Origin: the human T2T-CHM13v2.0 reference genome, Homo sapiens
Length of the DNA stretch: 64,000 nt
Reading direction: 5' to 3' (one strand)
NCBI RefSeq assembly: GCF_009914755.1
Contig: NC_060929.1
The notes below the pieces were generated by a model, which did not search any database, was not told where the DNA came from, and was given only the letters and a program-made list of their open reading frames with translations. This document shows positions 44,470-46,074 of this stretch, one piece after another (position 1 is the stretch's first letter; the number at the start of each line of letters is the position of its first letter). The position numbers were made by a program, and so were the translations under genes.

Positions 44470-44685
44470 ATGGCGGGCGCCCCTCCCCCAGCCTCGCTGC
44501 CGCCTTGCAGTTTGATCTCAGACTGCTGTGCTAGTAATCAGCGAGACTCTGTGGGCGTAGGACCCTCCGAGCCAGGTGCGGGATATAATCTCGTGGTGTG
44601 CCGTTTTTTAAGCCGGTCCGAAAAGCGCAATATTTGGGTGGGAGTGACCCGATTTTCCAGGTGCGTCCGTCACCCCTTTCTTTGA
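44470..44685 (+). CDS. L1 ORF0, intact 71 aa, in the antisense-promoter direction (sense to ADGRV1)
   Basis: MAGAPPPASLPPCSLISDCCASNQRDSVGVGPSEPG...; strong Kozak ggcaATGG; donors CAG|gtgcg after nt 106 and nt 191 of the ORF. Confidence 0.88.
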   Translation: MAGAPPPASLPPCSLISDCCASNQRDSVGVGPSEPGAGYNLVVCRFLSRSEKRNIWVGVTRFSRCVRHPFL

Positions 44686-44920
44686 CTCGGAAAGGAAACT
44701 CCCTGACCCCTTGCGCTTCCCAAGTGAGGCAATGCCTCGCCCTGGTTCGGCTCGCGCACGGTGCACACACCCACTGACCTGCGCCCACTGTCTGGCACTC
44801 CCTAGTGAGATGAACCTGGTACCTCAGATGGAAATGCAGAAATCACCCGTCTTCTGCGTTGCTCATGCTGGGAGCTGTAGACCGGAGCTGTTCCTATTCG
44901 GCCATCTTGGCTCCTCCTTC

Positions 44921-45607
44921 ATGTGGCGTTATTTCTGAGGGCTCTGTTCTGTTCCATTGATCTGTATCTCTGTTTTGGTACCAGTACCATGCTGTTTTGG
45001 TTACTGTAGCCTTGTAGTATAGTTTGAGGTCAGGTAGCGTGATGCCTCCAGCTTTGTTCTTTTGGCTTAGGACTGACTCGGCGATGCGGGCTCTTTTTTG
45101 GTTCCATATGAACTTTAAAGTAGTTTTTTCCAATTCTGTGAAGAAAGTCATTGGTAGCTTGATGGGGTTGGCATTGAATCTATAAATTACCTTAAGCAGT
45201 ATGGCCATTTTCATGATATTGATTCTTCCTACCCATAAGCATGGAATGTTCTTCCACTTGTTTGTATCCTCTTTTATTTCATTGAGCAGTGGTTTATAGT
45301 TCTCCTTGAAGAGGTCCTTCACATCCCTTGTAAGTTGGATTCCTAGGTATTTTATTCTCTTTGAAGCAATTGTGAATGGGAGTTCACTCATGATTTGGCT
45401 CTCTGTTTGTCTGTTATTGGTGTATAAGGGTGCTTGTGATTTCTGTACATTGATTTTGTATCCTGAGACTTTGCTGAAGTTGCTTATCAGCTTAAGGAGA
45501 TTCTGGGCTGAGATGATGGGGTTTTCTAAATATACAATCATGTCATCTGCAAACAGGGACAATTTGACTTCCTCTTTTCCTAATTGGATGCCCTTTATTT
45601 CCTTCTC
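44921..45607 (-). mobile_element. Second L1 ORF2 fragment (older L1PA3/4-like) abutting the 5' end of the full-length L1
   Basis: 687 nt homologous to 40206-40892; [13 protein letters not shown]...LLNEIKE; no 3'UTR or tail of its own. Confidence 0.92.
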
Positions 45608-45902
45608 GAAAAATATTATTTGTTTTTACATTCCTTATACAGAGTATTAGGATACTTATTCATTGTTGAATGGAGTGTATTCAAAGAAAACCACATAAGC
45701 CCTGAGGCTTAATCCTCTTATCTGTAGTGAGGAAAATTGGTCATTTTCTGCATCATCAGTGGTAAAGTAAGTGCTATACTTTGGATGAAGAGGTACCATT
45801 TGGTATACTTTGGATGAAGAGGTACCATTATTTGATAATAAACTCTATTAGACATGGGGATGACACCCTCTGTTAAGGCATTGGTGGGTTTCTTGCTCAC
45901 AG

Positions 45903-46074
45903 GGCCTTTGAAGATGTCAAGGTCTTTTGGCGAGTCACACTTAACAAAACAGTCGTCGTGCTCCAGAAGGATGGGGTAAACCTGATGGAGGAACTTCAGT
46001 CTGTGTCAGGGACCACAACCTGTACAATGGGTCAAACAAAATGCTTTATCAGCATTGAACTCAAACCAGAAAAG
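45903..46074 (+). CDS. ADGRV1: ADGRV1 coding exon (~exon 76)
   Basis: ctcacag|GGCCTTT...GAAAAG|gtaaga; (R)AFEDVKVFWRVTLN...IELKPEK; 172 nt, phase 2-0; not in the ORF track. Confidence 0.93.

What the first reader, a model, noticed from the sequence alone, without database searches (positions are those of the whole stretch)
44470..46074. Predicted in-frame L1 ORF0-ADGRV1 fusion driven by the L1 antisense promoter
Seen: ORF0 is intact with a strong Kozak context. Its second donor, TCCAG|gtgcgt after 44660, falls after 191 nt (63 codons plus AG, phase 2). The next ADGRV1 acceptor (45903, 1242-nt intron) is phase 2 and starts G-GCC-TTT, giving ...VTRFS-R-AFEDVKVFW... with no frameshift and recreating the native Arg codon. 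The first donor (after 44575, phase 1) is out of frame with exons 76-78. Established: primate ORF0 forms fusions with downstream exons through these donors. Inference: a hominid-specific mini-receptor of ~970 aa (using the recalled 6306-aa length) that keeps GAIN/GPS, 7TM and the PDZ-binding tail but lacks ~5400 aa of ectodomain. It would bypass most upstream USH2C truncating alleles. Caveat: there is no obvious signal peptide, so topology is uncertain.
Basis: partly seen in the sequence, partly recalled or inferred. Interest (0 to 1): 0.85.

Follow-up and report, generated by a model that had tools for sequence, protein, structure and literature searches.

The report
L1 ORF0 upstream of ADGRV1 exon 76
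An old, full-length L1 retrotransposon sitting backwards in an ADGRV1 intron could on paper splice its small ORF0 in frame to the next exon, but that match is expected by chance, and the one published transcript placed at this element appears to start after the ORF0 start codon.

Summary
The sequence observation is correct. An intact 71-codon ORF0 (44470-44685, +) lies antisense in the 5'UTR of a full-length minus-strand L1. Its second donor (after 44660) carries 2 nt. Exon 76 (45903) needs 2 nt, AG+G restores Arg5399, and the product would be 971 aa.

- Frame match is weak evidence: 5 of 17 ADGRV1 exons in the window have that phase.
- A chimeric transcript from this L1 is already in print. 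EST DA438186 (tongue tumour, source L1PA4) is in Criscione 2016 Table S1.
- After I fixed the hg19-to-window offset with three anchors, that EST's 5' end maps to 44533. This is 63 nt downstream of the ORF0 ATG, so it cannot encode the fusion.
- "L1-ADGRV1" is also reported in lung squamous carcinoma.
- ORF0 has no hydrophobic leader, unlike the natural short isoform VLGR1a.
- The junction falls inside a Calx-beta repeat.

Verdict: an ordinary L1 antisense-promoter locus. The fusion protein is a formal possibility only.

The parts
38883..44917 (-). Full-length L1. A short T-run (the poly-A tail on the minus strand) is at 38883-38888. The 5' end is at about 44917, next to the YY1-box start of the 5'UTR. 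It is called L1PA4 in the hg19 RepeatMasker column of Criscione 2016 Table S1.
   Evidence: The subfamily label comes through the mapping and was not tested here.
42998..44014 (-). L1 ORF1, intact, 338 aa.
   Evidence: Pfam Transposase_22 1.7e-60, Tnp_22_dsRBD 9.5e-47, Tnp_22_trimer 8.8e-29.
39000..42995 (-). L1 ORF2, broken into open pieces of 582, 334 and 219 codons in one frame, then 226 codons in another. That means two in-frame stops and at least one frameshift. The endonuclease and reverse-transcriptase domains are recognisable.
44470..44685 (+). L1 ORF0, 71 codons plus stop, with G at -3 and G at +4 around the ATG. The ATG lies in a YY1-like ATGGCG motif.
   Evidence: The YY1 site at L1 nt 448-453 is from Criscione 2016 section 7.
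44533..44533 (+). Mapped 5' end of EST DA438186 (hg19 chr5:90117871, 0-based). This is L1 nt about 385, 63 nt downstream of the ORF0 ATG and upstream of both donors.
   Evidence: Assumes hg19 and T2T are colinear between 44533 and 46037.
44573..44581 (+). ORF0 donor 1, CAG|gtgcgg. The last exon base is 44575 and 1 nt is carried. It is out of frame with exons 76-78.
   Evidence: (score 8.0).
44658..44666 (+). ORF0 donor 2, CAG|gtgcgt. The last exon base is 44660 and 2 nt (AG) are carried. It is in frame with exon 76.
   Evidence: (score 9.4, above 12 of 17 native donors).
44918..45632 (-). Separate 715-bp L1 ORF2-derived fragment in the same orientation, directly abutting the 5' end of the full-length L1. 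It forms part of the would-be intron.
   Evidence: and the hub's repeat mask. Pfam found no domain in its 215-aa ORF. The ORF2 identity is my reading of the translation.
38097..38214 (+). ADGRV1 exon 75. It ends in AG, the first two bases of the Arg5399 codon.
45903..46074 (+). ADGRV1 exon 76 (residues 5399-5456). Its acceptor, tttcttgctcacag|G, is the best acceptor-like site between 44700 and 45910.
   Evidence: (score 11.8, fourth highest of 17 native acceptors).
45914..45979 (+). Out-of-frame ATG in exon 76 opening a 21-codon upstream ORF. It is the first ATG of any transcript that starts at 44533.
45985..45987 (+). First in-frame ADGRV1 ATG after the L1 (Met5427).
3822..4035 (+). For comparison: the start of the natural short isoform VLGR1a. 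An in-frame ATG in the 5' extension of exon 65 gives a hydrophobic leader.
   Evidence: VLGR1a is 1967 aa and initiates in intron 64. The 5' extension of exon 65 was seen in retina reads.

Best explanation
This is an ordinary intronic full-length L1 (labelled L1PA4), inserted antisense to ADGRV1 in intron 75. Its 5'UTR keeps the usual two-way promoter, an intact ORF0 and the two ORF0 splice donors.

When the L1 promoter is derepressed, as in squamous tumours, the antisense promoter starts RNA at about L1 nt 385-400. That RNA runs with the gene, is spliced from an L1 donor and reaches downstream ADGRV1 exons, giving a rare chimeric RNA.

The start lies downstream of the ORF0 ATG, so the documented RNA does not encode an ORF0-ADGRV1 fusion. 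Its first ATG is an out-of-frame one in exon 76. At best, leaky scanning or reinitiation would give an N-terminally cut ADGRV1 starting at Met5427.

The frame match between donor 2 and exon 76 is coincidence. A 971-aa fusion needs the minority of starts upstream of 44470. It would also lack a signal sequence and begin inside a Calx-beta repeat, so it is unlikely to reach the membrane in receptor topology.

Shown: the anatomy, the frames, the residue register and the published listing of the EST. Inferred: the EST's place in the window (it rests on local colinearity of the two assemblies), which donor and acceptor that EST uses, the translation outcomes, and the fate of the protein.
For: Anatomy and frames.

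Residue register (Arg5399):
- An in-frame Met at 3822 in the 5' extension of exon 65 makes the junction Arg residue 1060 of a 1967-aa VLGR1a. That leaves 907 residues after it, and 6306 - 907 = 5399.
- p.Thr5444Lys / c.16331C>A then falls on an ACA codon at 46036-46038.
- p.Val4539Glu / c.13616T>A falls on a GTG codon at 6476-6478.

hg19 g.90119376 therefore equals window 46037, which puts the DA438186 start at 44533.

Criscione 2016 Table S1 row: DA438186, + strand, source L1PA4 on the minus strand, gene ADGRV1, tongue tumour, single alignment, manually validated, not in their PacBio data.

The published main antisense start at about nt 400 lies just downstream of a YY1 site at nt 448-453. 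There is no ATG between 44533 and 44660. The next ATGs are the out-of-frame one at 45914 and then Met5427.

L1-ADGRV1 is listed among the differentially expressed L1 chimeric transcripts found in lung squamous carcinoma, 74 involving 40 genes (which L1 is not stated in the text I could read).

Kyte-Doolittle maximum over 11 residues is 1.22 for ORF0 against 3.15 for the VLGR1a leader. A Calx-beta profile built from the window's own repeats gives an envelope of 5388-5472 spanning Arg5399.

Phase null: 5 of 17 exons match donor 2.
Against: - The EST's exon structure was not seen, so I do not know that it uses donor 1 or 2, or the exon 76 acceptor. It ends at about window 71162, outside the window.
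- An EST 5' end can be clipped or incomplete. That this EST series was cap-selected is recalled, not checked.
- The mapping assumes no indel between hg19 and T2T across 1.5 kb.
- Antisense starts are dispersed over the first 600 bp of the 5'UTR, so some RNAs may include the ORF0 ATG.
- Denli 2015, as cited by others, detected ORF0-exon fusions at 57 loci, so the mechanism is real elsewhere.
- Donor 2 and the exon 76 acceptor both score well (the matrices are recalled approximations).
- Many GPCRs insert without a signal peptide, so the missing leader argues against correct topology but does not exclude it.
Confidence: 0.8

Rival explanations
1. The antisense promoter yields mRNA that includes the ORF0 ATG and is spliced from donor 2 to exon 76. 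It is translated into a 971-aa ORF0-ADGRV1 protein that reaches the membrane as a GAIN/7TM mini-receptor and signals.
For: The frame is exact and open as far as the window goes. The ATG context is good. Donor 2 scores 9.4, and the exon 76 acceptor (11.8) is the best in the interval. ORF0-exon fusions exist at other loci. An N-terminally cut isoform, VLGR1a, is used as a signalling-competent form in cell studies.
Against: - The only mapped transcript starts after the ATG, as does the published main start.
- No such transcript is in RefSeq (hub table). None is in the section on ADGRV1 of the retina long-read paper. The main texts of two L1-chimera studies in brain and stem cells do not mention ADGRV1.
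- There is no hydrophobic leader ahead of several hundred luminal residues.
- The join truncates a Calx-beta repeat.
- The frame match is expected for 5 of 17 exons.
Confidence: 0.04
2. The antisense-promoter RNA is translated, but from Met5427 in exon 76. This would happen by leaky scanning past, or reinitiation after, the 21-codon upstream ORF, and would give an 880-aa N-terminally cut ADGRV1 with no L1 part.
For: A transcript starting at 44533 has no ATG in the L1 exon with either donor. The first in-frame ATG is at 45985 and is open for 247 codons to the window end.
Against: - An upstream out-of-frame ATG with A at -3 precedes it, and its stop lies only 5 nt before Met5427.
- Met5427 has C at -3.
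- DA438186 is absent from the paper's table of ESTs with Met-started peptides of 100 aa or more (the accession was found only in Table S1). This hints that the EST does not carry this ORF, although the paper's criteria are not fully known to me.
- It has the same missing-leader problem.
Confidence: 0.08
3. The EST does not mark a real antisense-promoter start. It is a 5'-incomplete copy of an ADGRV1 pre-mRNA or of an L1-exonised ADGRV1 transcript, and the L1 is silent.
For: There is a single EST, from a tumour library, and it was not seen in the paper's PacBio data. Antisense L1 carries cryptic splice sites, as the paper itself warns.
Against: The paper removed cases in which another EST supported exonisation, and it checked this row by hand. 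The 5' end falls at L1 nt about 385, where antisense starts cluster. An L1-ADGRV1 chimera recurs in lung squamous carcinoma cohorts.
Confidence: 0.08

Closest known systems
L1 antisense-promoter chimeric transcripts (Speek 2001 as cited; Criscione 2016, 988 genes; L1-MET as the classic case)
   Same: A full-length primate L1, antisense in an intron. The start lies in the 5'UTR at about nt 385-400, the RNA is sense to the host gene, and it starts downstream of the gene's own start. This very locus is a row of Criscione 2016 Table S1.
   Different: Nothing essential. Support here is one EST, against four ESTs plus PacBio support for a second L1 (L1PA2) about 107 kb further down the gene.
ORF0-exon fusion transcripts and proteins (Denli 2015, known to me only through and recall; the paper is not held)
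   Same: An intact ORF0 with a good start context, two donors, and a downstream host exon in frame with one of them.
   Different: There is no evidence here for a transcript carrying the ORF0 ATG, and none for a peptide. Criscione's column 'previously identified in literature or C-GATE' says 'no' for this row. A GPR98/ADGRV1 name mismatch could hide an earlier listing.
VLGR1a / ADGRV1a, the 1967-aa isoform initiated in intron 64
   Same: An internal start yields an N-terminally cut ADGRV1 that keeps the C-terminal part of the protein.
   Different: [quoted passage not shown] The ORF0 version has no leader, starts 1060 residues later inside a Calx-beta repeat, and has no read support.
Gene-breaking by intronic antisense L1 (Wheelan 2005; recalled, not read here)
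   Same: An antisense L1 in an intron that can start a downstream partial transcript of the host gene.
   Different: The other half of that model, upstream transcripts ending at an L1 antisense poly-A site, was not examined. Only two AATAAA/ATTAAA signals lie on the + strand between exons 75 and 76, at 39341 and 45837.

Membership tests
L1 ORF0 locus | An ORF of about 70 codons on the antisense strand of a primate L1 5'UTR, with its ATG near L1 nt 450. | tested here: met
   71 codons at 44470-44685. With the L1 5' end at about 44917, the ATG is at element nt 448. The start codon is placed at about nt 451 in Garza 2023.
L1 ORF0 locus | Two splice donors inside ORF0. | tested here: met
   CAG|gt after 44575 and after 44660, scores 8.0 and 9.4. 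'Two splice donor sites' comes from Hancks and Kazazian 2016. I could not check their exact published positions.
Expressed ORF0-exon fusion | A donor in frame with the next host exon. | tested here: met
   Donor 2 carries 2 nt and exon 76 needs 2 nt. The reading is open for 338 codons.
Expressed ORF0-exon fusion | A transcript that contains the ORF0 ATG and the donor-to-exon junction. | tested here: not met
   The only EST placed at this L1 maps to a start at 44533, after the ATG. Its junctions were not visible to me.
Expressed ORF0-exon fusion | Peptide or ribosome evidence. | not testable with these tools
   No proteomic or ribosome-profiling data were available.
L1 antisense-promoter chimeric transcript | A spliced RNA whose 5' end lies antisense in an L1 5'UTR and which overlaps a host exon. 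| tested here: met
   Criscione 2016 Table S1 row for DA438186, placed in the window by three anchors.
Membrane-inserted adhesion GPCR isoform | An N-terminal signal or leader sequence ahead of a long extracellular region. | tested here: not met
   ORF0 maximum hydropathy is 1.22 over 11 residues and 0.56 over 19. The VLGR1a leader scores 3.15 and 1.79. This is a hydropathy scan only, not a dedicated signal-peptide predictor.
Membrane-inserted adhesion GPCR isoform | GAIN/GPS, 7TM and the PDZ-binding tail retained. | not testable with these tools
   These lie beyond residue 5673, outside the window. Their C-terminal order is taken from the review.
L1PA4 subfamily | Diagnostic positions of the subfamily consensus. 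| not tested
   The label is taken from the hg19 RepeatMasker column. No L1 consensus library was available.

The most novel reading that the evidence does not exclude
In cells with demethylated L1 promoters (early embryo, squamous tumours), a minority of antisense starts upstream of 44470 give an mRNA spliced from 44660 to 45903. It is translated into a 971-aa ORF0-ADGRV1 protein specific to apes. Its 7TM part still inserts into the membrane. Having lost nearly all of the ectodomain, it acts as a deregulated or constitutively active ADGRV1 C-terminal receptor, or the ORF0 part redirects it within the cell.
Probability: 0.04. Interest if true: 0.6.

Novelty: new member of a known kind. Interest (0 to 1): 0.2.

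Why it matters
If the fusion were made, it would be a lineage-specific, transposon-born isoform of a deafness, blindness and epilepsy gene, transcribed independently of most upstream truncating alleles.

As it stands, the locus is one more example of a well-described class. The chimeric RNA is already listed in print. [quoted passage not shown] No clinical consequence follows from the frame match.

The useful results are practical:
- The exact residue register of the window: exon 76 starts at Arg5399.
- The local hg19-to-window offset (90,073,339).
- The point that the EST start lies after the ORF0 ATG.

Tried and rejected
Literature searches
- Full-text searches found no paper linking this gene to the L1 antisense promoter in its text: 'L1 antisense promoter' + GPR98 gave 0, ADGRV1 + L1PA gave 0, and GPR98 + LINE-1 + chimeric gave 0.
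- A broader search found only the lung-cancer paper, which names L1-ADGRV1 once.
- Jonsson 2019 supplements: ADGRV1/GPR98 in 0 of 5 files.
- Garza 2023 and Adami 2025 main texts have no ADGRV1. Their supplementary tables of chimeric transcripts were not seen. Table S10 of the lung-cancer paper, which would say which L1 is involved, was therefore also not seen.
- Denli 2015 and Speek 2001 are not held.

Placing the EST
- Placing it by gene-start offset alone gave window 44664-44778. I rejected this once the hg19 position of c.16331 showed that T2T is 131 bp shorter upstream.
- Searches for splice-variant names at the five candidate exon boundaries gave nothing useful. A search for c.16xxx variants did not help. 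Two further variant look-ups had no hits.

Protein and structure searches
- PDB search with exon 78 returned only a distant integrin beta-4 Calx-beta match.
- Pfam on single exons: exons 76 and 77 and ORF0 gave no family. Exon 78 gave Calx-beta below cut-off. Exon 74 gave Calx-beta at 6.6e-22.

Other
- Earlier findings of this scan were not open.

Full report
**What is there**

The stretch 38791-45632 is masked repeat (hub table). On the minus strand it holds a full-length L1.
- A short T-run (the poly-A tail) and the L1 3' end begin at about 38883.
- ORF2 is broken by two in-frame stops and at least one frameshift, but still shows endonuclease and reverse-transcriptase domains.
- ORF1 is intact at 338 aa, with all three L1 ORF1 Pfam domains.
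- The 5'UTR ends at about 44917, next to the YY1-box start of the element.
- Directly beyond it, at 44918-45632, lies a separate L1 ORF2-derived piece in the same orientation.
- ADGRV1 runs on the + strand, so the L1 is antisense to the gene, between the exons at 38097-38214 and 45903-46074.

**Check of the observation**

Every sequence statement holds.
- ORF0 runs from 44470 to 44685 and is 71 codons long. It has G at -3 and G at +4.
- The donors are CAG|gtgcgg after 44575 (106 nt from the ATG, 1 nt carried) and CAG|gtgcgt after 44660 (191 nt, 2 nt carried).
- Joining the 17 annotated exons gives a single open frame. In it, the exon at 45903 starts with 2 nt carried in, and the preceding exon ends in AG.
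- Both the native join and the ORF0 join therefore read AGG, which is Arg.
- Donor 2 joined to this exon stays open for all 338 codons available in the window. Donor 1 stops at codon 61, 40 or 41 with the three next exons. Donor 2 stops at codon 85 or 66 with the second and third.

**Residue numbering**

I fixed the register with three independent anchors.
1. VLGR1a is a 1967-aa isoform that starts in intron 64 as a 5' extension of exon 65. The only in-frame ATG in that extension is at 3822. Counted from it, the junction Arg is residue 1060. That leaves 907 residues after it, and 6306 - 907 = 5399.
2. With Arg5399, the published p.Thr5444Lys (c.16331C>A) falls on an ACA codon at 46036-46038.
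3. The published p.Val4539Glu (c.13616T>A) falls on a GTG codon at 6476-6478.

So the exon is number 76 and the window covers residues 4177-5673.

**Is it more than chance?**

No.
- Among the 17 exons of this gene in the window, 5 begin with 2 nt carried in and 3 with 1 nt.
- A donor carrying 2 nt would therefore be in frame with 5 of 17 exons, and one or other ORF0 donor with 8 of 17.
- Intact ORF0 copies are numerous: about 3200 genic loci, of which 57 were seen fused to an exon. This is Criscione 2016 summarising Denli 2015. I could not read Denli 2015 itself.

**Transcript evidence**

Criscione 2016 Table S1 lists five ADGRV1 ESTs (I read part 1 of 32 of the table).
- Four start in an L1PA2 at hg19 chr5:90,225,056-90,225,343. 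That is about 107 kb beyond this L1 and outside the window.
- One, DA438186 from tongue tumour tissue, runs from 90,117,871 to 90,144,501 with 'L1PA4, minus strand' as its source. It was manually validated, was not in their PacBio data and had not been reported before.
- Because hg19 g.90119376 is window 46037, the local offset is 90,073,339. The EST therefore begins at window 44533 and ends at about 71162.
- 44533 is inside this L1's 5'UTR (element nt about 385). It lies 63 nt after the ORF0 ATG and before both donors.
[quoted passage not shown] In the window the ORF0 ATG sits in an ATGGCG motif of that kind.
- The mapped EST therefore cannot encode ORF0.
- From 44533 to either donor there is no ATG. 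The first ATG, at 45914, is out of frame and opens a 21-codon ORF. The first in-frame ATG is Met5427 at 45985.
- I could not see the EST's exon blocks, so its donor and acceptor remain unknown. Its accession occurs only in Table S1, not in the table of Met-started peptides of 100 aa or more. That is weak evidence against a long ADGRV1-frame ORF in it.

Other literature:
- 'L1-ADGRV1' is named among the differentially expressed L1 chimeric transcripts in lung squamous carcinoma, 74 involving 40 genes, which were also found in a second cohort. The text does not say which L1.
- The section on ADGRV1 of a long-read study of human retina reports VLGR1a-, b- and c-type transcripts and a new exon 39A, but no start in intron 75.
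- RefSeq's 16 transcripts add only exons at 32707-32825 and 32707-33807 (hub table).
- The main texts of two L1-chimera studies in brain and stem cells do not mention the gene. One study's supplements do not either.

**Splice-site quality**

These scores use recalled, approximate position matrices, so they are only relative.
- Donor 2 scores 9.4 and donor 1 scores 8.0. The 17 native donors range from 2.2 to 12.5.
- The exon 76 acceptor scores 11.8 and is the best acceptor-like site in the interval scanned (44700-45910).
- Rival acceptor-like sites are at 45071 (8.7), 45643 (8.8) and 45728 (8.1).
- Other donor-like sites are at 44723 (8.0) and 45766 (9.4).
- Splicing from donor 2 to exon 76 is therefore plausible if the RNA is made.

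**Would the protein work?**

- ORF0's 63 residues contain no hydrophobic stretch. The maximum Kyte-Doolittle mean is 1.22 over 11 residues.
- The natural short isoform starts with a strongly hydrophobic leader from the exon 65 extension, scoring 3.15.
- No segment between the join and the window end (residue 5673) is hydrophobic either; the maximum is 0.97 over 19 residues.
- The fusion would therefore have to move a long N-terminal region across the membrane without a leader. That is generally inefficient (established knowledge of GPCR biogenesis, not tested here).
- A Calx-beta profile built from the window's own repeats finds eleven repeats. One has an envelope of 5388-5472, aligned from profile position 31 at residue 5426. 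The join at 5399 therefore lies inside a repeat and removes its first strands.
- The GAIN, 7TM and tail regions lie outside the window and were not examined.

**Verdict**

- The chimeric RNA class, and this locus as a table row, are already in print.
- The ORF0-ADGRV1 fusion protein is not reported in any text I could search and has no support from the one mapped transcript.
- I rate it as a new but unproven member of a known kind, of low interest.

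Noticed in passing
window 38820-38915 and 44918-45632: The insertion is composite. A 715-bp L1 ORF2 fragment abuts the 5' end of the full-length L1 in the same orientation. The last 26 nt or so of an L1 3' end plus a T-run occur twice at the left edge (about 38850-38880 and 38883-38915). A possible target-site duplication starting GAAAAATAT flanks the whole block (about 38822 and 45608). 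This could be a nested insertion with a deletion of about 1.2 kb from the older element, or a carried-along 5' flank.
   Followed up: no
window 44470-44917: The first 448 nt of the L1 5'UTR keep 28 CpGs (observed/expected 0.74). The comparison values are 0.12 in the rest of the 5'UTR, 0.17 in ORF2 plus 3'UTR, and 0.21 for the whole window. That is high for an element labelled L1PA4. Without a consensus I cannot say how many CpGs were lost.
   Followed up: partly
window 3798-4035: The VLGR1a start can be read from the genome. There is a stop at 3798 and a single in-frame ATG at 3822, giving a Cys-rich hydrophobic leader of about 15 residues that runs into exon 65. The exon 65 acceptor is the weakest of the 17 in the window, scoring 0.6.
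   Followed up: yes
outside the window, about window coordinate 151,700-152,000 (hg19 chr5:90,225,056-90,225,343): A second antisense L1 (L1PA2) in ADGRV1 is the better-supported antisense-promoter start. It has four ESTs (stomach line, 293 cells, breast cancer line, nasopharynx), all marked as detected in PacBio RNA-seq.
   Followed up: no
window 45643-45766: A possible cryptic exon of 124 nt lies between the L1 and exon 76 (acceptor score 8.8, donor AAA|gtaagt score 9.4). Its length is not a multiple of three, so including it would break the fusion frame.
   Followed up: no
window 45775-45830: A direct repeat of about 27 nt, read by eye (tactttggatgaagaggtaccatt, twice), lies in the intron just upstream of exon 76. 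An AATAAA follows at 45837, 66 nt before the exon.
   Followed up: no
window 32707: The hub table lists RefSeq transcripts whose exons begin at 32707, 5 nt inside the 1106-nt exon 74. This may be another internal start of ADGRV1, 13 kb upstream of the L1.
   Followed up: no
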